From a virus (taxonomy: Duplodnaviria; Caudoviricetes), in the IMG/VR virus record IMGVR_UViG_3300007276_005408, positions 1 through 60,174 of that record: a DNA stretch of 60,174 nucleotides. The stretch is one strand, 5' to 3'. The notes beneath the pieces were generated by a model. The model had not been told where the DNA came from. It ran no database searches and saw only the letters and a list, made by a program, of their open reading frames with translations. Position numbers and translations under genes: made by a program. Each line of letters opens with the position of its first letter. Within the stretch, counting starts at the first letter, position 1. Shown here one piece after another: positions 13,699 to 44,493 of this stretch.

Positions 13699-13808
13699 TA
13701 CTTTTTGAACCTTTCCTCTATCTTATCAGCTATCCAATCTATTATATCAGTAGACCATACTAATAACATCAGAATCAGAAACGATCCCCAACCTTCTAAA
13801 CTTGTCAT
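13698..13808 (-). CDS. small membrane protein (36 aa)
   Basis: Hand translation MTSLEGWGSFLILMLLVWSTDIIDWIADKIEERFKK; AGGAGA RBS. Confidence 0.6.
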   Translation of the reverse strand: MTSLEGWGSFLILMLLVWSTDIIDWIADKIEERFKK

Positions 13809-13888
13809 TTATTTTCTCCTATGCTAGTGCTATATCATTATTTAAAAATTTTATATAAAGAGCCTCTGCTTGTATCATATCTTTCATT

Positions 13889-19137: not shown

Positions 19138-19365
19138 TCAAGCTTCTCCAATTATCATATCGAACTCACTTTTGAAGTATTCCCTATCCACCATGATGCT
19201 GGGAACGGAAGCCTCAAATAGTTCAGGGTCTTCTTTCATAATACTTAGGATTTCTCCCGTACTGAATATACTTACCATATGCTCTTCGGCTTTGTGTAGC
19301 AGATAGTCCATCTGCTCTTTAGTTACTTTCATCTTTTTGAAGTCTACTTTCTTTTTTTCTTTCAT
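19138..19365 (-). CDS. hypothetical protein, probably leaderless
   Basis: ATG 3 nt after the TACTTATA motif (19369..19376). Confidence 0.7.
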   Translation of the reverse strand: MKEKKKVDFKKMKVTKEQMDYLLHKAEEHMVSIFSTGEILSIMKEDPELFEASVPSIMVDREYFKSEFDMIIGEA

Positions 19366-19409
19366 GTATATAAGTATCTACTTACTTTAGCAAAAATCTT
19401 TTTATCTTA

Positions 19410-19891
19410 CCGCTGCTATAAAACTAGCGGAGGGGGGAGTCTCTTATTGACATTGGAAGTCCCCCCACCTAGGGAAATGTGTCTGCCTGTCCATCGGGCT
19501 TCAAACCGTCTGTTACACCCATCACCATTTAGCATATTTATCGGGTCGTTTTTTGGCTCTTCAGTTCAGACACTATTGATTCAATTCTTTGTCGGTATTT
19601 GTATCAGTTCCGACTTCTGAATCTAAAGGTGGGGATTCGAACCCCACAGCCTTACTAACGGACTAATCAGGCAATCACTCCCTTTTGTCCTCAGACAACC
19701 TCTTACCTCAAGAGATGATTAGTCTCTATCAACGGCCTTCTAAAGCCGTACCTTACTCAGTTTGATATCCTATATCTGGCATTTCAGCCCCTTTCGGTAC
19801 GATGTCTTTTTGGGACTCCAGAAGTCTCCGACATTTTGTCAGAGAATCTAACAGTGACTCTCAATCTTAGTCCCTAATTCTTTTAGTGTCT
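19410..19891 (-). ncRNA. large ornate structured non-coding RNA candidate (~480 nt), family unassigned
   Basis: No ORF; many nested helices; T-loop hairpin GTGGGGTTCGAATCCCCAC; preceded by a promoter and a boxA-like element. Confidence 0.75.
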
Positions 19892-19897
19892 TACAAA

Positions 19898-19910
19898 TTT
19901 TCAAAGAACA
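19898..19910 (-). promoter_or_regulatory. boxA-like antitermination element TGTTCTTTGAAAA
   Basis: Resembles rrn-leader boxA; lies between the promoter and the structured RNA. Confidence 0.65.
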
Positions 19911-19946
19911 ACCAACCCATCAAAATCTCTCCCCAACCAACATATA

Positions 19947-19975
19947 AAGCTACAACAAAAAAAGCAGAAAAACAA
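19947..19975 (-). promoter_or_regulatory. class A promoter TTGTTT-N17-TAGCTT driving the ncRNA
   Basis: Same -10 box and spacing as the other class A copies. Confidence 0.7.
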
Positions 19976-20007
19976 GGACTTTCTGCAATTATTTCCAGAT
20001 ATATCTT

Positions 20008-20100
20008 GAAGTGCTTTAGCTGCCAGTCGGTAGGATCTATCCGATCCCGCTGGGTAGACAATCCAAGCTTCATCTGTCGCTCAGACAGCGCGGTTGTACA
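20008..20100 (-). ncRNA. small GC-rich structured RNA candidate
   Basis: CTGTC/GACAG hairpin plus a long bulged rod 20008..20071; AATTTATA motif immediately upstream. Confidence 0.45.
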
Positions 20101-20134
20101 CTATAAATTACAAAGGATTTGGCTAATAAACAAG

Positions 20135-20665
20135 CTAAATATCTTGTGAACTAGAAATATCTGAGGAGAATAGGCCATTTACAGCCTTGGTAAAGGATTC
20201 CACATTAGACGGAACAGAAGGACCTTTTTGATCCAGCTTGAGTAAGTAGTAACAATTGTAACATAGTAAGCGTAGGTTGCTAAAATCCTTATTGGTGTCG
20301 TCATTATCTAAGTAATCTAACTGTAAAGGCTTAGTCATATCAGAGGTTCTATACTCCTCATACCCACAATTACTGCAACATTCTTCCAGATAACCCTCGC
20401 GTACTAATCTATACTGAAGTTTCGTGGTAGAATAATTAGGATTCTTACCGCTAAGTATATCAGCTATCTCAGTAGGCTTGAATCCTCTTGGTAATCCTGT
20501 ATTCATAGTACGAGGACCACTTGGATTAGGTTGCCATAAATCATATTGTACGGCGTACTTTTTAAAAGTGTTATAAGCTACATTTAGCAATAGGCTGGCT
20601 TGTTTCATACTACGCGTTTCATTTATCGCCCATTGTATTCTATCTTTACTAAGTCTGCTACTCAT
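20135..20665 (-). CDS. HTH plus degenerate HNH zinc-binding protein
   Basis: N-terminal HTH-like SMKQASLLLNVAYNTFKKY; CSNC...LQLDYLDND...NLRLLCYNC lacking the usual His residues; GGAGG RBS before ATG 20665. Confidence 0.75.
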   Translation of the reverse strand: MSSRLSKDRIQWAINETRSMKQASLLLNVAYNTFKKYAVQYDLWQPNPSGPRTMNTGLPRGFKPTEIADILSGKNPNYSTTKLQYRLVREGYLEECCSNCGYEEYRTSDMTKPLQLDYLDNDDTNKDFSNLRLLCYNCYYLLKLDQKGPSVPSNVESFTKAVNGLFSSDISSSQDI

Positions 20666-20988
20666 CTGAGCCTCCTGTGACATATTGACATACTAAGTTT
20701 ATCAAAATGCTAGAAAAAAATTTGCTGTCATAATGACATACACACACTATATTATTCTAGTATCCTGTATATAATATATATCAATAAGTGTCAATTATCA
20801 GTAGTAATCCCTTGACACCATATCATTCTACTATATCAAAAAGACATCACCCTGTCCTATTGGATACTCCTATTTCCGTCAGGAACGCTATGTATCTAGC
20901 GGACAGAGAAGTATCTAACTTTATTTACTTACCAAACTTACAGAATTATACCCCCCAAAGAGCATTATACCTTACTTACCTACAGGGC

Positions 20989-28212: not shown

Positions 28213-29409
28213 TTATTTCACTAAAATCAAATCTTTTTCATATGAGTCAAGTGAACTTATATAAAATTTGAATACTTCTAATTCAAACTCTCCAATATCT
28301 CCACTATCTTTTAGTATATTTGCCAGATTGGTTATAACCTGAAAGTTTTCTTGAGTCAAATCTCTACAATCAAACTCAACACATATATCATGCAACTCTG
28401 ATATTTTACTGTTACCATATAACTTTATCCTCTCTCCCAAATTATATGTTGTATTTGGTTGTTCTTCTCTTATGTATTCTGACATACAATCTGAGTCTTG
28501 TAAATCCAAATATATTTTATCACAGAAAGGTTCTAACTCTTTTAGTAAATTTACTGTACAATTGTAAGCTACAAAACCTATATCATACTTAGGTGATACC
28601 ACTGGTTTCATATATTGATCATGTTGTACCATTGTTCCCCACTTACGAATAAAGTTTCTCATATTCTTTGTGGTGGTATGTATCCACTCTGGACTATCTT
28701 TGCCTGGTGCTCCACCTGATGATGGATTGAACCTACTACCTCTACTTGTCATGTGATATACAAGTCCTCTCCAAGTCTGTATGAACTCCAATCCTAAAAG
28801 ATGAAATCGATTGAATATATCAGAGTCCTCTTTTGATTGTGGAGCAAATAATTTATCATGACCACCAGTCTTCCAATAGTCTTCTTTGTATATAGCCCAA
28901 GGTGCAAATATTCCTTCTGTGTCTCCGTTCTGATGTGGATTCTCTTCTACAAATTGAAGTAATCCTAGCTCATCAAACTCTTCAGGTTCTATTCCAAAGT
29001 CCTTTACTATTTTCTCAGGACCTCCAGGATGAAGAGGTGGTTCTATTCTTGTAGCACTCACCACAGTCCCTTTCTCTATCTTCTTTAGAACCTCAGTATC
29101 TAAGTTAGGACAAGCATACATATCTGCGTGAAAAAACATAACTATATCGTTACTGGCTTTCTCACATAAAAAGTCATACCAATAAACAATACCCTTTCTC
29201 TCAGGTCCTTTGTTTCTGAATATTTGTACATTAGGGTCTTTCTTTTTTATAGTCTGTAACCACTTCCAAGTACCATCATCTGAGAAATCATCTCCGAACA
29301 TTATTTCGTGTCTGTAACCTAAGTTCTTTCTGATACTATTGTAAGACCACTCTAAATATTTTAGATTGTTTCTACTTGGTTGTATAAAACTAATGGTTTT
29401 TTGCGACAT
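28213..29409 (-). CDS. GT2-family glycosyltransferase
   Basis: DDFSDDGT, HADM, GGHD, EDSD and VYH motifs. Confidence 0.9.
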   Translation of the reverse strand: MSQKTISFIQPSRNNLKYLEWSYNSIRKNLGYRHEIMFGDDFSDDGTWKWLQTIKKKDPNVQIFRNKGPERKGIVYWYDFLCEKASNDIVMFFHADMYACPNLDTEVLKKIEKGTVVSATRIEPPLHPGGPEKIVKDFGIEPEEFDELGLLQFVEENPHQNGDTEGIFAPWAIYKEDYWKTGGHDKLFAPQSKEDSDIFNRFHLLGLEFIQTWRGLVYHMTSRGSRFNPSSGGAPGKDSPEWIHTTTKNMRNFIRKWGTMVQHDQYMKPVVSPKYDIGFVAYNCTVNLLKELEPFCDKIYLDLQDSDCMSEYIREEQPNTTYNLGERIKLYGNSKISELHDICVEFDCRDLTQENFQVITNLANILKDSGDIGEFELEVFKFYISSLDSYEKDLILVK

Positions 29410-30280
29410 AATTATCCTTTATATATTCTATAATATCTACAGTTGGATTCCATCCTAATAATTCTTTTGCTTTAGTATCGGTGTTTAGTGTTTCTCTAGC
29501 TTCGCCAGGCCACGCATCAATGTATTCCAATGAATAGAACTGACCAAAGGCACCAGCTATATCATTGATAGAATAATTCTTACCTCTACCCAACTCTATT
29601 TCTTCTGCTTCGTATCTCATATCTACAGCACCATGCATAGCTTCCATCGACTTTACTATACCATCAACTATGTCACCTACATAAGTAAAATCTCTTCTCT
29701 GCTCTCCGTCACCTGTAATAGTTAATGGCTTACCTTCAGTATAAAGTCTTTCAAAAATACCTAATACATTACAATAAGCACCCTCTGTCGCTTGATGTTC
29801 CCCATATACATTATAGAACCTCGTTATTATTGTTGGCACATCATATATTTTGGAATACATTTTGATTACTTCTTCACCTAACCATTTTGTAAAGGTGTAT
29901 GGGTTAGCATATTTATCTCCATGCGTTGATGATGAGCCAGCATATACCAAAGGACAACCCAATCCTCTTACCCATTCCATAACAGATTGTGTTCCTAAAG
30001 AGTTAGCTTCAAAACTCAATGATGGGTGGTCGAATGATGGTTGTATCCTAGCTAAAGCTGCTAAATGAAATACACCATCCACATTATCAGGCATATCTGA
30101 ATACATATCGATATTACTGATGTCCATTTCTGTATAATTTACATTTTCATCCTCAATATGATTCTCTTTTTTACCAGTAGAATAGTTATCCAAACTGAAA
30201 ACTTTATGACCATCTGATAATAGTCTTTTTATTAGATTAGTACCAACAAATCCAGCACCACCCGTTACTACAAAATTCAT
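29390..30280 (-). CDS. NAD-dependent nucleotide-sugar epimerase/dehydratase
   Basis: TGGAGFVG, HLAA, YTFTK (YxxxK), RFYNVYG and RDFTYV. Confidence 0.95.
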   Translation of the reverse strand: MNFVVTGGAGFVGTNLIKRLLSDGHKVFSLDNYSTGKKENHIEDENVNYTEMDISNIDMYSDMPDNVDGVFHLAALARIQPSFDHPSLSFEANSLGTQSVMEWVRGLGCPLVYAGSSSTHGDKYANPYTFTKWLGEEVIKMYSKIYDVPTIITRFYNVYGEHQATEGAYCNVLGIFERLYTEGKPLTITGDGEQRRDFTYVGDIVDGIVKSMEAMHGAVDMRYEAEEIELGRGKNYSINDIAGAFGQFYSLEYIDAWPGEARETLNTDTKAKELLGWNPTVDIIEYIKDNYVAKNH

Positions 30281-30918
30281 CCTATTCTCCTATATATTCC
30301 TATGCCACAAGTATTCTCATTACCAGTGACTTTGTAATTGACAGTGTTTTCGAATCCATCAAAATCACACTCTTCAATAAATCTTCTTACGCCTGGCATT
30401 TTATCGTTATCTATATCGTGGAATATAAAATAACCACCCACTTTTACCATCTGTGAATAGAACTCATAATCCTTTTTCACATACTCATAATCGTGGTTTC
30501 CATCACAAAAAACAATATCATATTCAAGACCCAAATTACTTACTTGTCTCTTTACTTTTTCACCAGTTGAGTCTCCTATAATAAATACTGTCCCATCTTT
30601 AAAAGATAGGTTTCCTACAAGAGATTTTTCTACATTTGGGCATAATAAAGCATCCACTATTACATTATTGTCTATGTTCAAATTGTTCCAAAACATAGTA
30701 TTAGTTAGATTTGAAGCAGTCCCTATCTCCAAAAAGTTTATTGGCTTTTCTTCAAATTTATCTTGAAAGTAAACTAAAGTACTAGCAAACTCTTCAGGTA
30801 CCTGCATCAGATAATCTCTGTCACCATCGAACAATTTAGTTCCACCATAAGCGACTGGAGCATTAGCCTTTATTATCTCATAAAATTCTCTGTAACTTCC
30901 CACTATAAAGTCTCCCAT
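30277..30918 (-). CDS. SAM-dependent methyltransferase (Methyltransf_24-like)
   Basis: LEIGT, IGDS, CDGNHDYE and GGYFIFHD. Confidence 0.9.
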   Translation of the reverse strand: MGDFIVGSYREFYEIIKANAPVAYGGTKLFDGDRDYLMQVPEEFASTLVYFQDKFEEKPINFLEIGTASNLTNTMFWNNLNIDNNVIVDALLCPNVEKSLVGNLSFKDGTVFIIGDSTGEKVKRQVSNLGLEYDIVFCDGNHDYEYVKKDYEFYSQMVKVGGYFIFHDIDNDKMPGVRRFIEECDFDGFENTVNYKVTGNENTCGIGIYRRIG

Positions 30919-31838
30919 ATTTTTTTCATATAGTGATGGAATGTTTTTTCACTATAAGTAGATTCATATAATTCCTTTGTTTCAGCTGAACAACTATTAT
31001 AAAATCCTTTATCATATTTTAGTCTTTTAGCAATAGATTTAGCAGCACCTATGTCACCGACAGCAACAGTTGTTTTTGGATGGCAAATATTTTGTGTTCT
31101 GAAAGTCTCTATACCAATACAAGGTATACCTAAATAAGAACAATTCAGATTGAACGTACCAGCGCCAGGCTCACCTAAATGTACAGCATATTTATTCTTT
31201 GATAGCTCATACATCCAAGTCAACCAATCTACCCACTCTAAATGTGCTATATCCATACCTCTCTCTTCAGGTTTCATTCTACCAGTAACAGGCGCTCTCA
31301 AATCTTCTGATAATACCTTACCAACTACATAATCATCAAATCCTCTATAAATACTGACGAAATTTCCACCTAACATAACACTTTCTGTTTTTTCTTCTGA
31401 TACTTTTACTTCGTCTGTAATCATAAGTGTTGGTAGATACTCACATCTAACATCTAAAAGACCCTCATAATATTTCTTATCTATCTCATTGTGACAAAAT
31501 ATTACATCCATCTCTACCAAAGTATTGAAATACCATATTTGGTCTTCAATTTCTCCATCTTGCCAATAATAAAATGTACTCTCTTGCATTACTGATACCC
31601 TCTTGCACACTCTACGATAATGCTCTATCAATGAAAACTCTCTCAACTTATCTTTATGTTGTTTAGGTATTATAAGAATACCCAAATCATAAGAGTTATC
31701 TGGCAAAGTACTAAGTTCATACCAATGGTGATGTGTGGCATTTAGTGAACATACCCAAGCTAAATCAGTTCTCATATTTGGATGATTTCTTGGTGGTGTT
31801 CCACTATAACCAGCTTCTGTAAAGAATCCTATTTTCAT
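30903..31838 (-). CDS. putative GT-B glycosyltransferase
   Basis: MKIGFF start and C-terminal AGTFNLNCSYLGIPCIG pattern; genomic context. Confidence 0.55.
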   Translation of the reverse strand: MKIGFFTEAGYSGTPPRNHPNMRTDLAWVCSLNATHHHWYELSTLPDNSYDLGILIIPKQHKDKLREFSLIEHYRRVCKRVSVMQESTFYYWQDGEIEDQIWYFNTLVEMDVIFCHNEIDKKYYEGLLDVRCEYLPTLMITDEVKVSEEKTESVMLGGNFVSIYRGFDDYVVGKVLSEDLRAPVTGRMKPEERGMDIAHLEWVDWLTWMYELSKNKYAVHLGEPGAGTFNLNCSYLGIPCIGIETFRTQNICHPKTTVAVGDIGAAKSIAKRLKYDKGFYNSCSAETKELYESTYSEKTFHHYMKKIWETL

Positions 31839-32467
31839 CTTATAAACATTCTCTCTATTCTAAAGTGTTCAACTAACTCAAACCCAAACTTCAAACCATT
31901 GTAATTAGTATGAAATGCTCTTAGACTTTTGTCCATAAAATATGATTTGTCTTTTTGTGATGTAAAGTTCTGTAACATCTTGAGCTTCTCTTCACCAGCA
32001 AAGTATTTATCTAACCCTATATAGACATTAGGTTTCCAATCCTCTAATGTACTTGGTGTTTTATATGTAACCAGTCCAGTAGAACAATTCCTAATCAATG
32101 CCCAAGCTATATTATTAGCAATCCTATGTTCAAAATGAGAGTCTATATTTGGCGTAGTCATAATAATATCATAATCACTTATAGTATATTTTGACTCAAC
32201 TAAATTTATCCACGCATCTTCTGTTTTATCTTTTATATGTGAACCATTTACAAATTTACCATTGATATTCAGATACTCATCCCATATCTTCTGACACTCC
32301 CCATTTCTACCATCACCACTTGTGTCGTCAAAGTCGCCACCACTTGACATTACAGCAACATCAAAGTTTGTATCTTTATTTAGAATCATAGTACCTAACA
32401 TACCATATTCAGCATCATCAGGATGTGCTGAAAGACATAATACTTTTTTACAATCTAAGAATTTCAT
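31835..32467 (-). CDS. PIG-L/LmbE-family N-deacetylase
   Basis: AHPDDAE and DSHFEH motifs. Confidence 0.9.
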   Translation of the reverse strand: MKFLDCKKVLCLSAHPDDAEYGMLGTMILNKDTNFDVAVMSSGGDFDDTSGDGRNGECQKIWDEYLNINGKFVNGSHIKDKTEDAWINLVESKYTISDYDIIMTTPNIDSHFEHRIANNIAWALIRNCSTGLVTYKTPSTLEDWKPNVYIGLDKYFAGEEKLKMLQNFTSQKDKSYFMDKSLRAFHTNYNGLKFGFELVEHFRIERMFIR

Positions 32468-33366
32468 ATAACTATCTCATCGAAATGTCTAATAACTTTT
32501 ATTGGTTTGGGCTCATTAATAAGTATCTCTTTATTTTCCAAAATACCAATAATTATTTCAACAAAATTTACACCAGCTAATGTTGTAAAATATGTACCAC
32601 CACCAAATCTTGGATTGACTTCTATAAACTTTGGAACCCCATTTTCATCCTCTTTCAATTGAATACACACAGGACCTTTGAGTCCCAAAAAGTTACACAT
32701 TCTCATACACTCATTTTCTATATATTCATCTCTTACTATCTCTCCTTGCGTTGATATACCAGCCTTTGTCTGTAATCTCTTTCTAACAACTGCTACATAA
32801 CCACATAACACATCGACAGTGTATTCTTGACCTGGCAAATAGTCTGAATAAATATATTCTACATCACTATGATATGTTGATAGGTATTGATGTACATCCT
32901 CACAATGAAACACTCCTCTACTGCCACCCAACTCGTATCTTGGTCTAGCAATACTATTTTTGAAATTCATATTTTCATTAGACCAAGTCTTCGGTAAATC
33001 AAAATCATCTTTTACTTTTTTGTAAAACTCCCACTTATCATTACATAGTTTTATCGTATCAGAATTAGACATAAAGACATTTGTAATATCTGATAGAGAT
33101 TCGAACTTATCTATCTCCATATTACCAGTAGGTAATAAAACATCTACCTTTTCTTTCTCTATTATTTTTCTGATTGTGGGTATGAAATCTTCATCCGTAC
33201 TTTTGGGGACAATATATTTTGAATTTGCCAGGCAAAGACCAACAGAGTCTTCTGTTATATCCGTAGCAATAATTTTATGAGATGTACCTAACCTATCGTA
33301 ATTATTCAATGATTTTATAACTCCGATAGCAGCTGGTCCTCCAGCAGAAGTTACCATTATCTTCAA
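32464..33366 (-). CDS. ATP-grasp ligase (CarB-like)
   Basis: CNDKW, GSRGV, EYTVD and FIEVNPRFGG. Confidence 0.9.
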   Translation of the reverse strand: MKIMVTSAGGPAAIGVIKSLNNYDRLGTSHKIIATDITEDSVGLCLANSKYIVPKSTDEDFIPTIRKIIEKEKVDVLLPTGNMEIDKFESLSDITNVFMSNSDTIKLCNDKWEFYKKVKDDFDLPKTWSNENMNFKNSIARPRYELGGSRGVFHCEDVHQYLSTYHSDVEYIYSDYLPGQEYTVDVLCGYVAVVRKRLQTKAGISTQGEIVRDEYIENECMRMCNFLGLKGPVCIQLKEDENGVPKFIEVNPRFGGGTYFTTLAGVNFVEIIIGILENKEILINEPKPIKVIRHFDEIVI

Positions 33367-34139
33367 TTTTTATACAACTCCTCGTAAGTTCTTTTTATCC
33401 AATACTTTTGGTCTCTTTCTTTTGGATTTGGTGGTATAGCATTAAAGTGATACACCCATCCAGCATTTGTATAATGAAGTTCATCCTTCATCCAAAACTG
33501 CGCCTCCTCATCCAATACAATCAGATTCTTTCTCCATACATCTTGTAGGTTATAGCAAGGTGGTAAAATCTTTACATCTACATTATGTCTATCTAACATA
33601 TAGTTCAGTATTGTTTGGTCTGTGCCTGCCTGTACTTCAGCAATTACTTTTCTTATGTTTTCCGCATCACCTTCATAGTATTTTTTCATCTCATCGAAAA
33701 ACCATCTATGTTCTTTGTTGACTATCTGAAAACCACCATTGATATATTTATGTGGCATTATTCTATGTCCATCAAATAACTTATCTCCAAAGTCTCTGAT
33801 ACTTCTAGTAACCCACTCATAGCAACCATCATTCATAACCCCACAATACTTACCATCTGATTCTTCGAAGAAGTTAGGACAATCAGGATGAACAATCGTA
33901 TCAGCATCTACCATCAGTATTTGATTATACTCTATTTCATTTTCTTCTAAGAAGTCAAATAGATAATACCTTTGCCAAGTTATTTTCATATAGTCTACTG
34001 GAAAGAGTAAATCTTCCCATACTAGTAATTCACAATTATTCTTATCACAAAAATATTTCCAGCTATCAACTGAATATTGATAAGAATCATTTCTACCATC
34101 ACCCATTTTTATATTGGGTATGAAAACTATATTCTTCAT
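33363..34139 (-). CDS. GT8-like glycosyltransferase
   Basis: TWQRY, VDADT, YINGG, DQTILN and HFN. Confidence 0.85.
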   Translation of the reverse strand: MKNIVFIPNIKMGDGRNDSYQYSVDSWKYFCDKNNCELLVWEDLLFPVDYMKITWQRYYLFDFLEENEIEYNQILMVDADTIVHPDCPNFFEESDGKYCGVMNDGCYEWVTRSIRDFGDKLFDGHRIMPHKYINGGFQIVNKEHRWFFDEMKKYYEGDAENIRKVIAEVQAGTDQTILNYMLDRHNVDVKILPPCYNLQDVWRKNLIVLDEEAQFWMKDELHYTNAGWVYHFNAIPPNPKERDQKYWIKRTYEELYKN

Positions 34140-34143
34140 TCCT

Positions 34144-35001
34144 CTATATCAATTCCATAATTTCATCAACAGTAAATCTTTCAGCATCCTCTGAAGAAAG
34201 TCCATCTGCTAATATCTTTTCATGCAAATTCTCACCTTTTCCTAAACCAATAACTTCTGGTTTTATATCTTTGTCCTTTGCGTATTTGTTTATCATCGCT
34301 TGTAATAAATCTCCCATTTCCATAGCCTTCATATCAGGAACATATGGTAATGAATTTTCAGCCTTCAACATACAATCCCATATCAAGTCAACTGCTTGAT
34401 CGATAGTCCAAAAGAATCTTGTAGCTTTTGGTTCTGTAATTATCGGTGTCTGTCCCTTTTTCAACAAATCTCTCCATTTAGGTAAGACCGAACCAGTAGA
34501 ATACAATACATTACCATACCTAACAATTCTAAATTGGGTATCAGGATAGTTTGTTTCAAATTGTCTATACAATGCTTCCATCAAAAACTTAGAAGCACCA
34601 TACACACCTGACACTATCGCTGCTTTATCTGTACTAATTCCTACATTGAAATCTAAGTCATACTCAGCAGTTAGTTCTAATAGATTCAATGAACCAATGG
34701 TGTTAGACCTAATACATTCACGACTCTGTGTTTCAGCAATACCCACGTGTTTGAAAGCAGCTAAATGAAATATCCCATCTACCATCCTAACTGCCTGTTC
34801 ACAGTCAAATTTATCAGCAATATCTCCAGTCAAAAACTCTACATAAGGTAGGTCTTGTTTTAACTGAATCAACTTTCCTTCATCTCTAGCAATAGTAAGA
34901 ATATTACCACCTTGTTCGTGTATTCTCTCAATGGTTTTCTTACCAAGAAATCCACTACCACCAGTTACCAAATATGTTTTACCTCTATCTATTGTAATCA
35001 T
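34144..35001 (-). CDS. UDP-GlcNAc 4,6-dehydratase-like protein (PseB/FlaA1/CapD family)
   Basis: TGGSGFLG, AAFKHV, STDKA, YGASK, RYGNV, TRF and GENLHE. Confidence 0.9.
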   Translation of the reverse strand: MITIDRGKTYLVTGGSGFLGKKTIERIHEQGGNILTIARDEGKLIQLKQDLPYVEFLTGDIADKFDCEQAVRMVDGIFHLAAFKHVGIAETQSRECIRSNTIGSLNLLELTAEYDLDFNVGISTDKAAIVSGVYGASKFLMEALYRQFETNYPDTQFRIVRYGNVLYSTGSVLPKWRDLLKKGQTPIITEPKATRFFWTIDQAVDLIWDCMLKAENSLPYVPDMKAMEMGDLLQAMINKYAKDKDIKPEVIGLGKGENLHEKILADGLSSEDAERFTVDEIMELI

Positions 35002-35010
35002 TTTTTTCTC

Positions 35011-35781
35011 CTAATAATCACTAAGTTTTAATCTGTTTACTCCGATTTCATTTACCAAATCGTAATTTTCTTCTTTAGGCCTCGCCTTATACCAAGCCTT
35101 TGTTCTAGTCTCATTGAATGAGTCCTTACATAACATTGTATACATAAAAACTCTTCTATCTTTATTTACATGTGGTATTCCGTGATTTGAAAATTCTGAG
35201 TTTTCAAATATAACTACCCTATTGAATTTTGGTTCTATCTGTTTCCAACACTCTTTCATATCATCTGTCCAAAGTTCAAGATATCCTGTGTCTTCTGACA
35301 CCCATTCTTTATTCATATAACCAACCACAGTTATTCTTTTCTCTAAGTTTAGATGTGGGTGTAATCTAGCATCACTGTGAACCAATTGGAACCCATCTTT
35401 CTTTATGTATCGTAAACCACTCCATTGTCCAATTTCATTATAATCATCAGGTACTAAATTATCTACACCAGTAACCTTTGTCATCCAATCGACACTTTCT
35501 TGAGTCTGAAACTTTCTGAATACATCGCCCCATTTGCCAGGCATATCTTCTACTTTACTGATACCATAGTTATTTGGTTCAAGCAAATTATCTTTATCAA
35601 ATATTTTATTTCTGAATTTATACCATCTATTATCTTCTACAGGTGGTATGTAATTATATAACTCTTCAGCAAGCTTCTTATTGAAAAAATTATCAACCAC
35701 CACATATCTGTAATGTTTCCATTCATAATTGAACTTTTTGTTCAAATCTTCAAAATTTACTTTTCCTAATATATCCATCAT
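35011..35781 (-). CDS. 2OG-Fe(II) oxygenase
   Basis: HSD, GYLELW, PKFNRVVIF, HG and distal R. Confidence 0.9.
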   Translation of the reverse strand: MMDILGKVNFEDLNKKFNYEWKHYRYVVVDNFFNKKLAEELYNYIPPVEDNRWYKFRNKIFDKDNLLEPNNYGISKVEDMPGKWGDVFRKFQTQESVDWMTKVTGVDNLVPDDYNEIGQWSGLRYIKKDGFQLVHSDARLHPHLNLEKRITVVGYMNKEWVSEDTGYLELWTDDMKECWKQIEPKFNRVVIFENSEFSNHGIPHVNKDRRVFMYTMLCKDSFNETRTKAWYKARPKEENYDLVNEIGVNRLKLSDY

Positions 35782-36569
35782 TGTTTCCTACACCAGTCAC
35801 CAAGATGTGTTACTTCTGGTTTATGATTTATGTCTCCCCATCTTCCTGAAACAAAACATCCCCATTTCTTATGTGTTTCTTCATGACCTATTAGATTAGT
35901 ATCCATCATAACTATGTCTCTTATTTCTTTTTCTAAGTGGCTAGTACCCTTTGTTTGGTTACTCCAATATTCTTGATGTATTGGTTTATAAAAATCTCTA
36001 CACTTACTAACCTTTGCTATGTGTGGATTGCCTGAATAAAACAAACCTTTAGTTAGTGGTAAGTCTATCTCCGTTTCAACTTCGAAGTATCCACCATCAT
36101 GCGAATCCCAATGTGATGCTCCGCCAGGACCCATATAAGTGTATGAAAATCTTACATAGTTAAAGTGTTCATGTTCATCCATCTTATCCATAATCTTCAT
36201 CGCTGGTACATCTTCTACAAACTTCCAGTCATGTTCTAAGAATAAAAAATATGGTGTCTTACAATTATCTATCATATGCCACCAACTACCACGCATTAGT
36301 TCTTGTCTATCTTCTACAATATCAACATTTATGTGACTAAACTCATTGACTAATCTACTCTGTATATTATCATAGTATTGTTTGAAAAGTTCAGGATACT
36401 TATCTTCCATAACCTTATCTATGTAAAGATAATATTTAGCGTTACCAAGTCCAAGCTTCTCATGCGAACTCTGTAGAGTTTCGAATAACATAGTATTTTC
36501 TAAATATGGGTCTGTGGCAACATTGACAATATGTGTCATAACCATAACCGATATTCTATCTTCTATCAT
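35778..36569 (-). CDS. GT-A glycosyltransferase-like protein
   Basis: FLFLEHDW, SGNPH and HLG motifs. Confidence 0.7.
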   Translation of the reverse strand: MIEDRISVMVMTHIVNVATDPYLENTMLFETLQSSHEKLGLGNAKYYLYIDKVMEDKYPELFKQYYDNIQSRLVNEFSHINVDIVEDRQELMRGSWWHMIDNCKTPYFLFLEHDWKFVEDVPAMKIMDKMDEHEHFNYVRFSYTYMGPGGASHWDSHDGGYFEVETEIDLPLTKGLFYSGNPHIAKVSKCRDFYKPIHQEYWSNQTKGTSHLEKEIRDIVMMDTNLIGHEETHKKWGCFVSGRWGDINHKPEVTHLGDWCRKQ

Positions 36570-37354
36570 AAACTTTCTCCTATTAGTTTTACTAATCTGT
36601 CATTTGAAGTATTTACTCCATCAGCCCATCTATCGAATGCTCCACTTTTGAAATGTAATACAGAGTTTCTTTTTGATTTTATCTCTTCGCTTATCTCTTC
36701 TTTAGAAAGGCCTGATACATTGAAGTTATATTTAGGTGATATATCAAGTACCTTTACATCAACTCCAAGTGAACCATTGTTTATATGTTCTCTCCATTGA
36801 TGAATAACACAACTAAAGTCTTGGTCTACCCACCAGTCTCTTTCTTCCAGTCCCTTTTTATGTGGATGATTCATTCTAAAATTTACATAAGGTTCCCAAG
36901 TTGGATTGTTCAATTGTTCAACAAATATAGACATAAAGTCTTTACCTTCTTTATTACTACGAGCTCCCCAACAACCACCATTTGTTGCAGCCCAAGCCTT
37001 TTGGTTTCTTGTAGTGTAACAATAATCAAATTCATTTTCAAATGCCTCAAATGGGTCTGATAAGAATAACATATCTCCATCAAATACCATAAGATTGTCC
37101 CCTTCTGGTAAACTCTGTAATAAGTCATTAGCCCTTTCAATCTTACAAGTCATTCTTCTATTGTCCCATAGCTTCTTTTCGAACCATAAAACCTCAATAC
37201 CCATAGAGTTTAGTAACTCCTCTGAACCCTTTTGTAATTCAGGTGAAGATACGAATATATTACAATCAGAAACAGACTTCAGCGAAAGTAGACATAGGTG
37301 AAACCAGTCGTCTTTCTCAACTTTACCTGTCCAAGAAAAAAATACATTATCCAT
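36566..37354 (-). CDS. nucleotide-diphospho-sugar transferase (GT-A)
   Basis: FDGDM, NGG, DQD, YN and LHFK motifs. Confidence 0.8.
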   Translation of the reverse strand: MDNVFFSWTGKVEKDDWFHLCLLSLKSVSDCNIFVSSPELQKGSEELLNSMGIEVLWFEKKLWDNRRMTCKIERANDLLQSLPEGDNLMVFDGDMLFLSDPFEAFENEFDYCYTTRNQKAWAATNGGCWGARSNKEGKDFMSIFVEQLNNPTWEPYVNFRMNHPHKKGLEERDWWVDQDFSCVIHQWREHINNGSLGVDVKVLDISPKYNFNVSGLSKEEISEEIKSKRNSVLHFKSGAFDRWADGVNTSNDRLVKLIGESL

Positions 37355-37832
37355 TTTTAGGGATTCTCCTCTTTAGTATTTCACTCCAATTATCTTTGAA
37401 TATTTCATAATCGATGTTATTCTCATTTAGCTTTTGAATCACATCCCAGTACAAAACTTTATATGGTGGTTCTACCTGATGCTTTTTACTCAAATCATCA
37501 ACTAAAAAACAATCCTCATCTTTTATTATACCAACCTTATCCATAGTATTATCACAAGTAATAATTGATTTATACGGAAATCCAAATCTATCTAACCACT
37601 CCTTTGTCCACTCATAAGCATTGTCATACCATCTAGCAGTCAGCATATGAATTTCATAATGCTTATCTAACTCCTTTACTGCTTCAAGTGAGCCTGGTAA
37701 AACGACATCTTTTTGATGTTCTTCGTATGTGAATGCTTTATCAAAATCACACCAACCATCTGTTGTGTTTCTTCTTATTCTTTCCCAGTGATTATTTAGA
37801 GTATTGTCTATATCGCAAAATAACTTTTTCAT
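37347..37832 (-). CDS. HAD-superfamily phosphatase (NT5C-like)
   Basis: DIDNT, TAR, K and VDD motifs. Confidence 0.85.
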   Translation of the reverse strand: MKKLFCDIDNTLNNHWERIRRNTTDGWCDFDKAFTYEEHQKDVVLPGSLEAVKELDKHYEIHMLTARWYDNAYEWTKEWLDRFGFPYKSIITCDNTMDKVGIIKDEDCFLVDDLSKKHQVEPPYKVLYWDVIQKLNENNIDYEIFKDNWSEILKRRIPKNG

Positions 37833-38674
37833 TTGAATTCCTTATGAAACCTTTCGTACTTATAAGTATCAGAAGTATATGTGAAAATAGAATAATTTTT
37901 TGAGTCTGTGTTCATGCCATACAAATTATATTTAATTGCTATCTCTATTGGTATATCTGTTTTAGGTACAACAAACACAGGCGATGGTTCACCACCAAAT
38001 ATGTCAATCAATAACTCTGAATTTCTATCTATTTTATTTCTTAGTTTTTCGACATCAAACTTTACCATCTGTTCTTGTAGGTGTTGAAAGATAGTTACTG
38101 GAGCAGTAGATGGCGTTTGTCCTATGAATCCATAGTTTTTATATCTAGCAAGATTCATATAAGAAAATATAGCATCACTTTGCATCTCATTCCAAAAGTC
38201 TTTTCTGATAAATATTATACTCAATCCAGCAAGGGAACCAAGTTGTTTATTCGAAGTGGTTACAAATATCTTAGTATTCTTTGGTATATCATAATAAGGA
38301 AATGAACTTATACCATCAACAATACAATCAGCATCATCAAATGTCTTTCCGTTTGAGGTTTCCAATTGACAATATAGTTTATGAGTACCATTTGTTTTAC
38401 TCTTAGGCTGTCGTCTGTCAAACTCTAACCACTTATCATGCCATAACCCTTCATTACCAATCACATCGATTGGATGTAATACAGACCAAAATACAGACTC
38501 TATTGCCAATGTACCACTACCACCCATAAATAAAACATCATATTTATGTCTATGCAATCCAGCCTTATCAAGCATCAGATTTGATAATTCTTTATATAAA
38601 TTTATGAAATGGGTATCTCTATGTGAAAAATCCGTTACTATATTTGTCGTTATGTCTGTATTAGGACCGAACAT
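37829..38674 (-). CDS. class V PLP-dependent aminotransferase (compact)
   Basis: MFGP, SHR, GSGT, ETS, VDGISS, SNKQL (PLP Lys) and TPST. Confidence 0.85.
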   Translation of the reverse strand: MFGPNTDITTNIVTDFSHRDTHFINLYKELSNLMLDKAGLHRHKYDVLFMGGSGTLAIESVFWSVLHPIDVIGNEGLWHDKWLEFDRRQPKSKTNGTHKLYCQLETSNGKTFDDADCIVDGISSFPYYDIPKNTKIFVTTSNKQLGSLAGLSIIFIRKDFWNEMQSDAIFSYMNLARYKNYGFIGQTPSTAPVTIFQHLQEQMVKFDVEKLRNKIDRNSELLIDIFGGEPSPVFVVPKTDIPIEIAIKYNLYGMNTDSKNYSIFTYTSDTYKYERFHKEFK

Positions 38675-39767
38675 CTATAAACTCCTTTATTGATTTATAT
38701 ACCAAGTCAAAATGGTTTCTTTTATCCAACCAATTATAACAATATCTTGGTATATGTTGTTTTAGTTCACTCATATTTTCTGTCAAAAACTTTACAAGAT
38801 TAGGTTCTTTAGGATTATAGAAAGGTGGACTGTACCAATGCCCTATACCACTTTCATCTGAATAACCAGCAGCGTATGTTGGCTGTACCTCTAAAAATGA
38901 AAGTGAGTTATCTTCTTGATTTATAATAACATCTACTCCTTGATGATTCAATCCAAGACAATGAACTGCTGAACAAATGTATTCTTCATGTTCTGTCATA
39001 ATTGTCTCGCATAATTTATTGTAGATTATAAAATCGTTTATATGTTTATCACTAAACTTACCAGCAGTTATAGCGCACCAATCACTCTTATCTACAACTC
39101 TCGCATAACCTGATACAATTCTATCACCAGCAACATGCAATCTAAAAGATGTGTTTACTCCTCTGCTCTCATCAACTGAGTTTACTAATTCTACACATAA
39201 CTTTTTAGTTTGTATTCGGCGCGTTTGACCAGTCTCTGAATATGGTTTTTCATTATCTAACTTAGTTAGACACTCATCTAACATAGACTCATCATCAACC
39301 TTATAAGTATTGTAACCACCTACGCTGTTATTTAGTCTAACTAAGAAAGGAAAAGCAATTGGGTGATTCTCACGCTGTTTATAGAAATCATTTTTATCTT
39401 CATAAGTAAAGAAATCAGGACAATTTACTCCCACATCCTTCCATCTAGCAAATGCCACCTCTTTATTCTGTACAGATAGAAATCCAATTGGTGAGTTTGT
39501 TATAAAAGGTATATCACCAATCTGTTGGCGCTGTTTCAACATACCTTCATACTCTTCTCTATTCATTTCATCAGGATCAGGATACCATCTTATGTAACGA
39601 ATATCATCTTTATATTTTTCGTATTGTTCAATTACTGAGTGTCCATCTTCACCATCAACATCTAATACCTTACCGAAATGTTTTTCCAACATTTCCTTTT
39701 CGAACACTCTCCAATTTTTATTGACTTTACCTACTCCTCTATTAGCACTAATTACACTATACATCAT
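38661..39767 (-). CDS. ATP-grasp ligase (RimK-like)
   Basis: QNK, FPFLVR...GG, GVDVI and FLEVQ. Confidence 0.75.
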   Translation of the reverse strand: MMYSVISANRGVGKVNKNWRVFEKEMLEKHFGKVLDVDGEDGHSVIEQYEKYKDDIRYIRWYPDPDEMNREEYEGMLKQRQQIGDIPFITNSPIGFLSVQNKEVAFARWKDVGVNCPDFFTYEDKNDFYKQRENHPIAFPFLVRLNNSVGGYNTYKVDDESMLDECLTKLDNEKPYSETGQTRRIQTKKLCVELVNSVDESRGVNTSFRLHVAGDRIVSGYARVVDKSDWCAITAGKFSDKHINDFIIYNKLCETIMTEHEEYICSAVHCLGLNHQGVDVIINQEDNSLSFLEVQPTYAAGYSDESGIGHWYSPPFYNPKEPNLVKFLTENMSELKQHIPRYCYNWLDKRNHFDLVYKSIKEFIDVRS

Positions 39768-40488
39768 AATACTCCAATATTAAATCTTTGAAATCAGGAG
39801 AATCTAAAGACTTCCTTATTCTAGTCTCAATCCTTCTATCAGCAATATCAGTTTTCAAATGAATTATATGCGTGTCATCTGAAAACTCACTCTCCCAATG
39901 AGTACTGACTAATATTCTATCTATATCGCCAATCTTCAACAAATGTATATTCTCTTCAGCAACCTCACTTAGTGATGGGCTTTCACGAGGTACATTTGTA
40001 GGTTTAGTATCTATTCTTTCAATCCACTCTTGCATAAACTTTGATGTTACCTTTGTTGGTTGTCCAATTACAAAAGAGCCTAAATATGGTGTTCCAGCAT
40101 CCCTCTTACATAGCTGTATATCATAGTTGCTATCTATCAGAGAAGATATATCTTTTACGAAAATACAATCACCATCAACCATCACTAGTGGCATTTTTGT
40201 TATTTCTAATAAGTGTTTGAAGACTATTGTTTTAGAACCAACATTTTCTTGCCATCCTTTACCCCAAGCTCCACCATTATTATAATCAGTTTTTAGTTTT
40301 GTATCATAGATGAACACCTCATCACCTTTACTGAGAAAATATTTTCTCTGTTCTTCTGTTAGTCCAGTGTCCACAATAAAAACATTATCTACTTTAGACA
40401 TATCATTTTTTTCATACAGCGAGTTTATCCAAAGTCTTCCGAATGGAAAATAAGAAGAATTGAAAACTACCATCATATTATACTGCAT
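39757..40488 (-). CDS. GT-A nucleotide-sugar transferase
   Basis: VDTGL, VDGDC and IIHLK; start near 40488 with GGAGG RBS. Confidence 0.75.
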   Translation of the reverse strand: MQYNMMVVFNSSYFPFGRLWINSLYEKNDMSKVDNVFIVDTGLTEEQRKYFLSKGDEVFIYDTKLKTDYNNGGAWGKGWQENVGSKTIVFKHLLEITKMPLVMVDGDCIFVKDISSLIDSNYDIQLCKRDAGTPYLGSFVIGQPTKVTSKFMQEWIERIDTKPTNVPRESPSLSEVAEENIHLLKIGDIDRILVSTHWESEFSDDTHIIHLKTDIADRRIETRIRKSLDSPDFKDLILEYYDV

Positions 40489-41464
40489 CAAATACATCCT
40501 CCCAAGTATACAACTTTTTTTGTGTAAACATATTATAGATGTTATGTTCTGACATCTTATTAGCGTTAGTGTACCAAGTATGACTGTGTCGTCCCTTCCC
40601 AACATCGCCAGGGGTGATTCCCTTCTCACCCTCAACATAAAGTCTTTTTTTAGGATGTTTTCTATTATGTACTAACAATATATTTTTGACTACATATTGT
40701 GGTATACCCCCAAGAATTCTCTGTAACATAATCATAAAACCAGTGTCTTCATGAACAAAGAAAGCACATTGTGGAATATTTACTCCTGACTTCACAACAT
40801 CTGATGACATCACTAAACCACAGCCATTGAATTTTGGTTTTTTCAAAACTCTAACATCTAATTCTTCAACACCTTCATTTATTTTATTCATTTCATCAAT
40901 TGACATTGTGTATTTCAGACTCCACCAGTTCTCCGTATCATTTTCTATAAATGGTTTATCTGTAAATTTTGTATGCTCTATTGGTTCCCAACTTTTGTCC
41001 CACATTTTACATCCACCAAAGAATGTAACATACTTAGGTGTATCTTCTTTTACCCCACTATGTAAGCTATCAAGTATCTCAAATGTTCTATCAGGTAGAA
41101 GAGCATCACTTTCACCCCACATCAGAACATCGACTTCGGTACAATATTTTGTATTGAATTCTCTTCTATAATCTGATATTGTATAGAATATATTATCAGT
41201 AGTTAGTGTGTAATTTACTGCGTATTCGTCACCAAAACTATCCACCATCGCTTCAAATCTTTTTACGATGTCATATAAAGAGGCCTGTTCTTTATCTATT
41301 TTCTCTAATTTTTGTCCAGCGTAAAAATACAAATCTATAATTACAGACTTTTTATTTTCAATAGTATCCAAAGAATTTTTTAGACTCTGTAAATACTCTC
41401 CTATAATTTCTATCTCATACCATTGTATCAAACAGCCAATAGCAAATTTATTAGTTAGTTTCAT
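40478..41464 (-). CDS. putative GT2-like glycosyltransferase
   Basis: WGESDA, HEDT and VHNRKHP motifs; context. Confidence 0.55.
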   Translation of the reverse strand: MKLTNKFAIGCLIQWYEIEIIGEYLQSLKNSLDTIENKKSVIIDLYFYAGQKLEKIDKEQASLYDIVKRFEAMVDSFGDEYAVNYTLTTDNIFYTISDYRREFNTKYCTEVDVLMWGESDALLPDRTFEILDSLHSGVKEDTPKYVTFFGGCKMWDKSWEPIEHTKFTDKPFIENDTENWWSLKYTMSIDEMNKINEGVEELDVRVLKKPKFNGCGLVMSSDVVKSGVNIPQCAFFVHEDTGFMIMLQRILGGIPQYVVKNILLVHNRKHPKKRLYVEGEKGITPGDVGKGRHSHTWYTNANKMSEHNIYNMFTQKKLYTWEDVFDAV

Positions 41465-43939: not shown

Positions 43940-44493
43940 ACACCCACTATTCGTTTTTTTGATTGTGCATCCCAATGATGTACTGGGATACCTCTTTCTC
44001 TTATTGCTGTCCGTATCTTTTTGGTATCTTCTCTTTCTTTATGTACCTTCTTTCCATGAAACTCAGCATACACAATATTTACATAGTCTATCGAACCATC
44101 TTCAATCATCTTTGGAAGTACTTCATACTCAGCACCTTCAATGTCCATCTTCATTATTATATAATCATCCTTACTAAAATTTTCTGTAATCCATTTACTA
44201 ATATCAACCGACTCTACTTGTATAGGATTTGTGAAATCTAAATTACCACGAGTCTTTCCATATATCAGAGATGAAGAAGCAGCATGTCCTAAATAAAAAT
44301 TTTGTATACCATCTTCTATCCAAACAGCTTTGTTATGAAAAGTTATACCATCTGTATTCTGTAACACCTCTATGAATCTTGGATTACACTCAAATGATAT
44401 TATTTCATAGTCACTACTATTAGGATATTCTTCTCTGAACTTCTTTACCGATATAGCTGCATGAGCACCTAAATCTAAAAAAACCTTTCTCAT
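43936..44493 (-). CDS. FkbM-family methyltransferase
   Basis: LDLGA, FECNP, KMDIEGAE and EFH. Confidence 0.9.
   Translation of the reverse strand: MRKVFLDLGAHAAISVKKFREEYPNSSDYEIISFECNPRFIEVLQNTDGITFHNKAVWIEDGIQNFYLGHAASSSLIYGKTRGNLDFTNPIQVESVDISKWITENFSKDDYIIMKMDIEGAEYEVLPKMIEDGSIDYVNIVYAEFHGKKVHKEREDTKKIRTAIRERGIPVHHWDAQSKKRIVGV

What the first reader, a model, noticed from the sequence alone, without database searches (positions are those of the whole stretch)
19410..19975. Large ornate ncRNA with its own promoter and boxA-like antiterminator
Seen: about 480 nt without an ORF in an otherwise gene-dense genome, preceded by a class A promoter (19947..19975) and TGTTCTTTGAAAA (19898..19910). 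Nested pairings: AGACACTA/TAGTGTCT (19884-91 with 19568-75, closing ~320 nt), GGGACT/AGTCCC, TCTCTGACA/TGTCGGAGA, GTACC/GGTAC, ACGGC/GCCGT, GACTAATCA/TGATTAGTC enclosing two hairpins, a T-loop hairpin (19629..19647), GTCGG/CCGAC, GGGGGGA/TCCCCCC and CCGCT/AGCGG. Established: boxA protects untranslated RNA from Rho termination, and phages carry large RNAs such as GOLLD and ROOL. I see no tRNA, tmRNA or RNase P signature. Inference: possibly a new large phage RNA class (scaffold, protein sponge, tRNA mimic or ribozyme).
Basis: partly seen in the sequence, partly recalled or inferred. Interest (0 to 1): 0.85.

Follow-up and report, generated by a model that had tools for sequence, protein, structure and literature searches.

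The report
Modular phage RNA array with tRNA-mimic
This gene-free stretch of an uncultured marine T4-like phage encodes a string of small, separately folding RNAs, one shaped partly like a tRNA; they match no catalogued RNA family, are common in ocean metagenomes, and their function is unknown.

Summary
The region is real, conserved, structured, non-coding RNA, but it is not one giant fold.

- **Layout.** On the minus strand, a phage promoter (19975..19945) and a conserved boxA-like leader element (19910..19898) precede six self-contained modules: A, B, a T-arm domain, hairpin D, C1 and C2.
- **Shuffling.** In relatives these modules are reordered, dropped or given promoters of their own. In one lineage they share an array with a genuine tRNA-Tyr.
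- **Support from covariation.** Compensatory changes back modules A, B, the T domain, C1 and C2 (0 of 500 shuffles reach the observed score).
- **What fails.** The roughly 320-nt closing helix is absent from the more distant relatives that keep the flanking modules, is at chance level, and competes with C1's own stem.
- **tRNA-like domain.** It has a canonical T arm. In short forms a 6+6 bp acceptor/T-like stack closes a four-way junction. tRNA, tmRNA and all other Rfam 15 models miss it.
- **Abundance.** At least 119 marine metagenome stretches carry the T domain.
- **Module A.** It occurs beyond this phage group, including circularly permuted and tandem copies.

Function is unknown. My best guess is a tRNA-operon-like precursor of stable accessory RNAs. 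Expression evidence is weak.

The parts
19964..19986 (-). Terminator-like hairpin plus U run behind the upstream HNH endonuclease gene. It overlaps the promoter's upstream element.
   Evidence: gene identity (phrog_14736, E 4e-13)
19945..19975 (-). Promoter of the phage's recurrent class. This copy has a degenerate upstream element.
   Evidence: 5 exact copies elsewhere in the window against 0.03 expected; the same promoter stands ahead of homologous arrays in relatives.
19898..19910 (-). boxA-like leader element
   Evidence: fixed position, enriched in non-coding leaders: 34 of 138 against 2 of 79.
19875..19883 (-). A/U-rich linker that recurs at module borders. In L273/L343 the same kind of linker directly precedes a tRNA-Tyr.
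   Evidence: by eye
19812..19874 (-). Module A: outer stem (19874-69 with 19817-12), a conserved one-sided internal loop, a 3-bp helix and a variable hairpin (19845-37 with 19833-25).
   Evidence: 29 sequences; 89.8% paired against 74.0 shuffled; 0 of 500 shuffles; 5 outer-stem pairs compensatory.
19747..19808 (-). Module B: conserved 8-nt prefix, then a three-way junction closed by a 6-bp stem (19801-796 with 19752-47).
   Evidence: 49 sequences; closing stem 99% paired, 5 of 6 pairs compensatory; whole structure 94.8% against 82.3; 0 of 500 shuffles.
19735..19746 (-). Small hairpin between B and the T domain; weakly supported.
   Evidence: 78.6% paired
19629..19727 (-). tRNA-like T domain. 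It comprises hairpin P2 (19727..19711) with an invariant 7-nt loop (19722..19716); a long arm P4-P5-P6 (19696..19649) whose invariant end loop (19679..19672) is complementary to the P2 loop; and a 6-bp T arm with a canonical 7-nt T loop (19647..19629).
   Evidence: 64 sequences; 97.9% paired against 87.6; 12 pairs compensatory; 0 of 500 shuffles; 142 bits; the only copy in the window; short forms.
19591..19614 (-). Hairpin D, conserved behind the T domain in many long forms.
   Evidence: by eye, one compensatory variant
19481..19571 (-). Module C1, closed by its own 5-bp stem (19571-67 with 19485-81).
   Evidence: 16 sequences; 5 of 18 predicted pairs compensatory, 3 of them in the closing stem.
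19429..19469 (-). Module C2: G/C-rich hairpin with a conserved loop and a U-rich tail. It may act as a terminator.
   Evidence: 34 sequences; 6 of 10 predicted pairs compensatory. The terminator scan did not list it.
19366..19430 (-). Last hairpin (19430..19410) and the conserved 5' leader of the downstream 75-aa ORF (start codon at 19365).
   Evidence: by eye; not tested by covariation

Best explanation
The stretch is a polycistronic, tRNA-operon-like array of small structured RNAs. It lies in a hypervariable slot beside an HNH homing-endonuclease gene of an uncultured marine T4-like phage.

**Shown**
- A phage promoter stands in front of it.
- A leader element of boxA type sits at a fixed position, and is specific to leaders without an immediate ORF.
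- Six modules follow. A, B, C1 and the hairpins D and C2 each close on themselves. A, B, the T domain, C1 and C2 carry compensatory changes.
- Relatives reorder or lose the modules, or transcribe them from promoters of their own.
- One module is a tRNA-like domain with a canonical T arm. In its short form it is a four-way junction whose 6-bp closing stem stacks directly under the 6-bp T stem, 12 bp in all, as in a tRNA's acceptor/T arm.

**Inferred**
- The boxA-like element keeps RNA polymerase Rho-resistant over about 520 untranslated bases.
- The A/U-rich linkers and the tRNA-like domain recruit the host's tRNA-processing nucleases, which cut the precursor into stable RNAs.
- The mature RNAs are accessory factors, most plausibly tRNA mimics or decoys for host tRNA-binding or tRNA-cleaving proteins.
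- The two invariant complementary loops lock the T domain by a kissing contact.
For: **Homologues and mosaic order.**. Of 138 T-domain instances, 65 have the B word upstream, 44 have module A upstream, 18 have A downstream and 25 have C1 downstream. Many contigs are short, so these are lower bounds.

**Covariation.**

**Short-form closing stem.** 97% paired, with 4 of 6 pairs changed on both sides.

**tRNA in the same array.** A true tRNA-Tyr sits behind the same kind of linker in L273 and L343, which are one lineage.

**Leader element.**

**Accessory nature.** The model R1 hits 3 of 5 partial relatives' genomes, once each. The closest relative, L003, carries a small ORF in the slot instead.

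**Neighbouring gene.** The upstream gene is an HNH endonuclease.

**RNA libraries.** Metatranscriptome contigs of 3 studies hold parts of the stretch, with summed depth highest over B and T. This is a weak hint only.
Against: - No 5' or 3' ends were mapped. Contigs cannot show them, DNA in the RNA libraries cannot be excluded, and the extra depth over B/T may just sum related phages.
- One RNA contig (X17) spans the promoter itself.
- In the long form, which is the window's form, no partner was found for the 6 nt behind the T stem. The acceptor-like stack is therefore missing here.
- tRNA and tmRNA models do not recognise the domain.
- The two invariant loops never vary, so their contact cannot be tested by covariation.
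- Single-sequence folding energies are only modestly better than shuffles (z from -0.1 to -2.3).
- No CCA-adding enzyme, RNA ligase or Ro60 gene was found in 5 partial genomes.
- B and T always travel together in long forms, so those two may form one larger unit.
- No promoter stands between C2 and the downstream ORF, so the array may also serve as that gene's leader.
Confidence: 0.6

Rival explanations
1. One large ornate RNA: the whole stretch of about 480-520 nt folds into a single architecture, like GOLLD or ROOL, with modules A to C as its domains.
For: All modules lie on one promoter-driven untranslated transcript in the window. B and T always co-occur in long forms. GOLLD also has a conserved part and a variable part and lies near tRNAs (PMC12286853, passages seen).
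Against: The closing helix occurs only in the window and two near-identical contigs. It is absent from the more distant relatives that keep its flanking modules, and it competes with C1's own covarying stem. Modules occur singly, reordered, or behind promoters of their own. No covarying pairs between modules were found, although only the 6-nt tail was searched for systematically.
Confidence: 0.15
2. A cis-regulatory leader: the structured stretch is the 5' UTR of the downstream 75-aa gene and controls it by attenuation, a riboswitch or a protein operator.
For: No promoter of the recurrent class lies between C2 and the start codon at 19365. Module A sits directly ahead of the homologous gene in L020, L194, L002 and L004, and in the 5' UTR of a RecA/UvsX-like gene in another phage group.
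Against: The same modules are followed by unrelated genes, by a new promoter, or by a tRNA. About 520 nt made of six separate folds is far beyond known leaders. C2 looks like a terminator. Permuted and tandem copies of module A are hard to fit to a riboswitch.
Confidence: 0.12
3. Decaying remnants: pieces of former tRNA genes and recombination scars in a plastic region, with no function of their own.
For: The slot is hypervariable and lies next to a homing endonuclease. The T arm is tRNA-like. L003 holds only a small T-loop piece.
Against: Many compensatory changes and invariant loops across 45-64 distinct sequences indicate purifying selection on structure. The family is abundant in marine metagenomes.
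Confidence: 0.03

Closest known systems
GOLLD and ROOL RNAs (large phage and prophage RNAs near tRNA islands)
   Same: Phage-encoded, untranslated and highly structured, with unknown function. They lie in the neighbourhood of tRNA genes, and kissing loops matter for their architecture (PMC12286853, passages seen). Here one lineage has a tRNA inside the array, and two invariant complementary loops exist.
   Different: No match to any Rfam model. There is no single conserved fold of 500 nt or more; the modules shuffle independently. Oligomer formation was not tested.
Phage T4 RNAC and RNAD (small stable RNAs of unknown function)
   Same: Small stable RNAs of unknown function in a T4-type phage (PMC9697503, passages seen). 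That they lie in T4's tRNA region and have tRNA-like 3' parts is my recollection; no call shows it.
   Different: No sequence comparison was made. The present phage is only distantly T4-like: its PolB is 47% identical to that of a Microcystis phage and about 33% to T4-like cyanophages.
Bacterial Y RNAs of the YrlA type (tRNA mimics bound by Ro60/Rsr)
   Same: A non-coding RNA with a canonical T arm and a tRNA-like junction. Some YrlA RNAs are cut by RNase P and receive CCA, and some are phage-encoded (PMC4201824, passages seen).
   Different: No TROVE/Ro60 gene in 5 partial genomes. There is no D-arm-like hairpin at the expected place. The stem partition is 6+6 bp.
boxA antitermination elements of rRNA operons and lambdoid nut sites
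   Same: A short U-rich element early in a long untranslated transcript, conserved in position. Its likeness to boxA consensus sequences is recalled, not computed.
   Different: No boxB-like hairpin was sought, NusB/S10 binding is untested, and the element drifts among relatives.

Membership tests
tRNA (RF00005) | Recognised as a cloverleaf by tRNA detectors | tested here: not met
   ARAGORN finds 0 genes in the window and 0 in 10 relatives' loci. The only Rfam hit is a tRNA-Sec match of 16.9 bits against a gathering score of 47. In one search only genuine tRNAs elsewhere were found.
tRNA (RF00005) | T arm with a canonical 7-nt T loop | tested here: met
   the stem is 99.7% paired over 64 sequences and 2 pairs are compensatory. 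The stem is 6 bp, not 5.
tRNA (RF00005) | Acceptor stem stacked on the T stem (12 bp) | tested here: inconclusive
   Met in short forms as 6+6 bp (97% paired, 4 of 6 pairs compensatory). Not found in the window's long form.
tRNA (RF00005) | Anticodon loop with a purine 3' of the anticodon | tested here: not met
   The only 7-nt loop (19722..19716) has a pyrimidine at that place (read). The loop is invariant in 64 of 64 sequences.
tmRNA (RF00023) | Detected by tmRNA models; tag reading frame; encoded acceptor end | tested here: not met
   ARAGORN finds none. Rfam finds none in the window. The only hit is a 13-bit match of 15 nt in L215.
GOLLD / ROOL / OLE / HEARO / RNase P and all other Rfam 15 families | Match to the family covariance model | tested here: not met
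   No match at gathering score in the whole window. At E up to 10, four chance-level hits. In 12 relatives' loci, no hit lies on the modules.
YrlA-type Y RNA | Encoded beside a Ro60 (TROVE) gene | tested here: not met
   PF05731 is found in 0 of 5 partial genomes, while the controls respond. The genomes are 33-68% complete, so absence is not proven.
YrlA-type Y RNA | Ro60-binding helix motif | not tested
   The motif is known to me only from the passages of PMC4201824. I made no model of it.
boxA / Nus-dependent antitermination | Conserved element early in untranslated transcripts | tested here: met
   34 of 138 non-coding leaders against 2 of 79 coding ones, at 32-36 nt behind the promoter.
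boxA / Nus-dependent antitermination | Binding of NusB-S10 and Rho resistance | not testable with these tools
   Needs binding and transcription assays.
Intrinsic terminator (module C2) | G/C hairpin followed at once by a U run | tested here: inconclusive
   The hairpin covaries and U-rich tails are seen in relatives. The scan did not list it in the window.

The most novel reading that the evidence does not exclude
These are new RNA classes with new activities, in three respects.
1. The B-T(-D) unit is a tRNA-shaped RNA whose two invariant complementary loops pair between molecules and build an RNA-only oligomer in the manner of ROOL or GOLLD. Alternatively, it is a decoy that disarms a tRNA-targeting host defence.
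2. Module A is a new self-processing or nuclease-guiding motif that cuts such arrays into units. It is found well beyond this phage group, also circularly permuted and in 48-nt tandem arrays.
3. A phage uses a boxA-type element to protect an operon of such RNAs.
Probability: 0.15. Interest if true: 0.9.

Novelty: new variant of a known kind. Interest (0 to 1): 0.72.

Why it matters
Phage-encoded structured RNAs near tRNA genes, such as GOLLD, ROOL and T4's RNAC/RNAD, are a long-standing puzzle. This locus adds several uncatalogued motifs with strong comparative support that are abundant in marine metagenomes.

Three features give direct experimental handles:
- A tRNA-like domain with an unusual 6+6 bp stack can be tested with RNase P, the CCA-adding enzyme and tRNA-modifying enzymes.
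- An invariant loop-loop pair can be tested by compensatory mutation and by oligomer assays.
- A leader element can be tested for antitermination.

The modular, shuffled layout suggests that phages trade small RNA cassettes much as they trade accessory genes. Module A's permuted and tandem forms make it a candidate for a processing or catalytic motif.

Tried and rejected
**Searches that found nothing**
- blastn of the stretch, and of two module-A contexts, against 50,697 cultured-phage records: no real match.
- Full-text search for six motif words: 5 papers, all unrelated primer or sequence coincidences. No paper with these motifs was found by that search. I did not search by topic beyond, and supplements were not seen.
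- The 14-nt C1 word scanned in viral contigs gave mostly chance hits and was not used.
- The downstream 75-aa protein found no relatives in viral contigs and has no Pfam or PHROG family.

**Host or bacterial copies of module A could not be checked.** Whether bacteria carry these motifs is open.

**Readings considered and dropped**
- A selenocysteine-tRNA-like cloverleaf: its acceptor pairing is not kept in relatives (by eye).
- attP or a tRNA fragment: no integrase context was examined, and covariation argues for RNA function.
- A hammerhead-like junction in module B: the junction words resemble the core, but no Rfam hammerhead model matches and, as I recall the core, one essential position differs.
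- A phage-RNA-polymerase promoter for permuted module A: its capped stem covaries, with 16 of 17 unique copies keeping both pairs.

**Gene searches.** CCA-adding enzyme, RNA ligase and Ro60 gave no hit in 5 partial genomes.

**RNA runs.** Parts of the stretch without cover in X17 and X20 carry no meaning.

Full report
**Setting.** The window is an IMG/VR virus record of 60,174 bases, estimated to be about one third complete. All long ORFs lie on the minus strand. Its family-B DNA polymerase is 47% identical to that of a Microcystis phage and about 33% to T4-like cyanophages, so it is a distant T4-type phage. The finding lies between an HNH endonuclease gene (20135-20683) and a 75-aa ORF of unknown family (19138-19365).

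**The observation.**
- Only short ORFs overlap the stretch, and the closest relative does not keep them.
- The promoter class is real: the pattern occurs exactly five times in the window against 0.03 expected. The RNA's own copy (19975..19945) is a weaker version that overlaps a terminator-like hairpin.
- The boxA-like 13-mer is present. In the window alone it is not above chance.
- Across the phage family, however, a motif of this kind stands 32-36 nt behind the promoter in 34 of 138 distinct promoter contexts that lack an immediate ORF. It does so in only 2 of 79 contexts that have one, and its background density is 0.064 per kb.
- ARAGORN finds no tRNA or tmRNA. Rfam 15 gives nothing at gathering score for the window. 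At E up to 10 it gives four chance-level hits, the most relevant a tRNA-Sec match of 16.9 bits against a gathering score of 47.

**Relatives.**
- The upstream protein led to 17 viral loci. In the four closest of these, the slot behind that gene is mosaic. One shares the T-loop part and the 3' part. One has a small Cys-rich ORF plus a T-loop piece. Two have one or two copies of the first module only.
- Pattern scans found the first module in 75 viral stretches and the T-arm region in 26 viral stretches, 16 of them family members by eye.
- In all sequence held there are 138 T-domain instances, or 114 distinct ones counting flanks. Of the 138, 65 have the module-B word upstream, 44 have module A upstream, 18 have module A downstream and 25 have the C1 word downstream. 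Many contigs are short, so these are lower bounds.
- In L020 the T domain plus C1 and C2 form one promoter-driven unit, and module A follows behind a second promoter.
- In L273 and L343, one lineage, the array ends in a genuine tRNA-Tyr that starts right after the same kind of A/U-rich linker that precedes module A in the window.

**Structure by comparison.** I dropped exact duplicates, and copies too close to a contig end, before every alignment.
- *T domain, long form.* 64 sequences, window first; L341 is identical there and was replaced by the window. My model comprises a hairpin with an invariant 7-nt loop, a three-part long arm, a 6-bp T arm, and a loop-loop contact. It is 97.9% paired against 87.6% in shuffles, with 12 pairs changed on both sides and 0 of 500 shuffles as good.
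Only the T hairpin holds. In most relatives they are broken without compensation.
- *T domain, short forms.* 45 of the 47 sequences not first classed as long form; the other two were moved to the long-form set. A 6-bp stem directly 3' of the T stem closes the domain. It is 97% paired, with 4 of 6 pairs compensatory. The whole structure is 90.4% paired against 78.6%, with 0 of 500 shuffles as good. The result is a four-way junction with a 12-bp acceptor/T-like stack.
- *The window's form.* No partner for the 6 nt behind the T stem was found between 60 nt upstream of module B and the T arm. The best offset averaged 3.8 of 6 pairs.
- *Module B.* 49 of 61 distinct copies; the 12 left out have long inserts, several with a second T-loop hairpin. 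It is a three-way junction whose closing stem is 99% paired with 5 of 6 pairs compensatory.
- *Module A.* 29 of the 33 shortest of 61 candidates. It is 89.8% paired against 74.0%, with five outer-stem pairs compensatory.
- *C2.* 34 of 38 candidates. 6 of 10 predicted pairs are compensatory.
- *C1.* All 16 copies.
- *The long-range helix.* It is present only in the window and two near-identical contigs. It is absent where the flanking modules persist. Such 8-bp complements are expected by chance: 3 observed against 1.8 +/- 1.7 in shuffles.
- These structures were drawn by eye from the same sequences, so the slid and shuffled controls flatter them somewhat. The many two-sided changes do not depend on that.

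**What it is.** The transcript is best read as beads on a string: promoter, boxA-like leader, then A, B, T, D, C1, C2.
- The covariance model of the T domain hits once in the window (142 bits). It hits once each in 3 of 5 partial relatives' genomes.
- The domain is therefore accessory. It sits in a plastic slot next to a homing endonuclease.
- None of the modules matches Rfam, in the window or in 12 relatives' loci.

**Expression.** Six RNA libraries were listed as holding words of the stretch, and four were laid.
- Two metatranscriptomes of one study carry contigs over the whole 2.7 kb at word depth about 10-16, rising to 55-115 over 19583-19855 (modules B and T).
- A third study holds only 19643-19804.
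- A fourth holds 19869-20040, which crosses the promoter.
- Depths are summed over contigs of related phages, and DNA carry-over cannot be excluded. This is a weak hint, not proof.

**Mechanism.**
- *Shown:* the promoter, the leader element, the independent covarying folds, the tRNA-like T domain, and co-location with a tRNA in one lineage.
- *Inferred:* protection from Rho by the leader element; cutting at the linkers and at the tRNA-like domain by host tRNA-processing enzymes; and an accessory role as a tRNA mimic or decoy.
- The promoter resembles the Bacteroidota type and the linker resembles an RNase E site. Both likenesses are recalled, not computed.
- A TonB C-terminal domain protein nearby fits a Gram-negative host.

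**Comparison with known systems.**
- ROOL and GOLLD are phage RNAs of unknown function, often near tRNA islands and held together by kissing loops (PMC12286853, passages).
- T4's RNAC and RNAD are still of unknown function (PMC9697503, passages).
- YrlA Y RNAs mimic tRNA, and some are cut by RNase P (PMC4201824, passages).
- The present RNAs share the ecology and the tRNA mimicry, but they fail every model-based membership test. No Ro60, CCA-adding enzyme or RNA ligase gene was found in five partial genomes.

**Verdict.** This is a genuine, abundant, uncatalogued set of phage RNA motifs.

Noticed in passing
L156 111-225, L137 548-615, L166 about 13800-13880, and about 15 further loci: Module A also occurs circularly permuted: the outer stem is capped by a loop and the inner end is open. 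This form lies upstream of assorted genes in other marine phage contigs, and in head-to-tail arrays with a 48-nt period (3 copies in L156). 16 of 17 distinct permuted copies keep both pairs of the capped stem.
   Followed up: partly
L158 8813-8880 and like loci (L141, L143, L151, L153, L163, L164, L170 and others): In another group of marine phages, module A (type 1) lies in the 5' UTR of a RecA/UvsX-like gene (373 aa), directly after a gp32-like single-strand-binding gene. Both gene names are my reading of the translations; no family search was run.
   Followed up: partly
L158 7028-7221: A manA RNA (RF01745) at 58.8 bits, above its gathering score of 55.2, lies about 1.6 kb upstream of that module A copy.
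   Followed up: no
L273 3478-3558; L343 950-1030: A tRNA-Tyr is encoded inside an array of these modules, right after the recurrent A/U-rich linker.
   Followed up: yes
L267, L312, L282, L247, L311, L229, L260 (module B region): Some copies of module B carry a second canonical T-loop hairpin in place of the variable hairpin. These include L247 and L311, which are otherwise near-identical to the window.
   Followed up: no
window 20000-20135: The segment between the HNH gene's stop and the promoter is partly conserved in L003 and in several metagenome contigs. It could be the endonuclease's target, a protein-binding site or a further RNA.
   Followed up: no
window 19363-19385: About 15 bases ending in the start codon of the 75-aa ORF are nearly identical in distant relatives. 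This could be a promoter for a leaderless message or a translational signal.
   Followed up: no
L003 4752-4895: The closest relative carries a small Cys-rich ORF of about 47 aa in the slot where the window has modules A, B and most of T.
   Followed up: no
window 28213-43975: A long run of genes on the minus strand includes a family-2 glycosyltransferase and a fused HMGL-like / cytidylyltransferase protein. It may be a sugar-nucleotide or nonulosonic-acid pathway, which is unusual in a phage.
   Followed up: no
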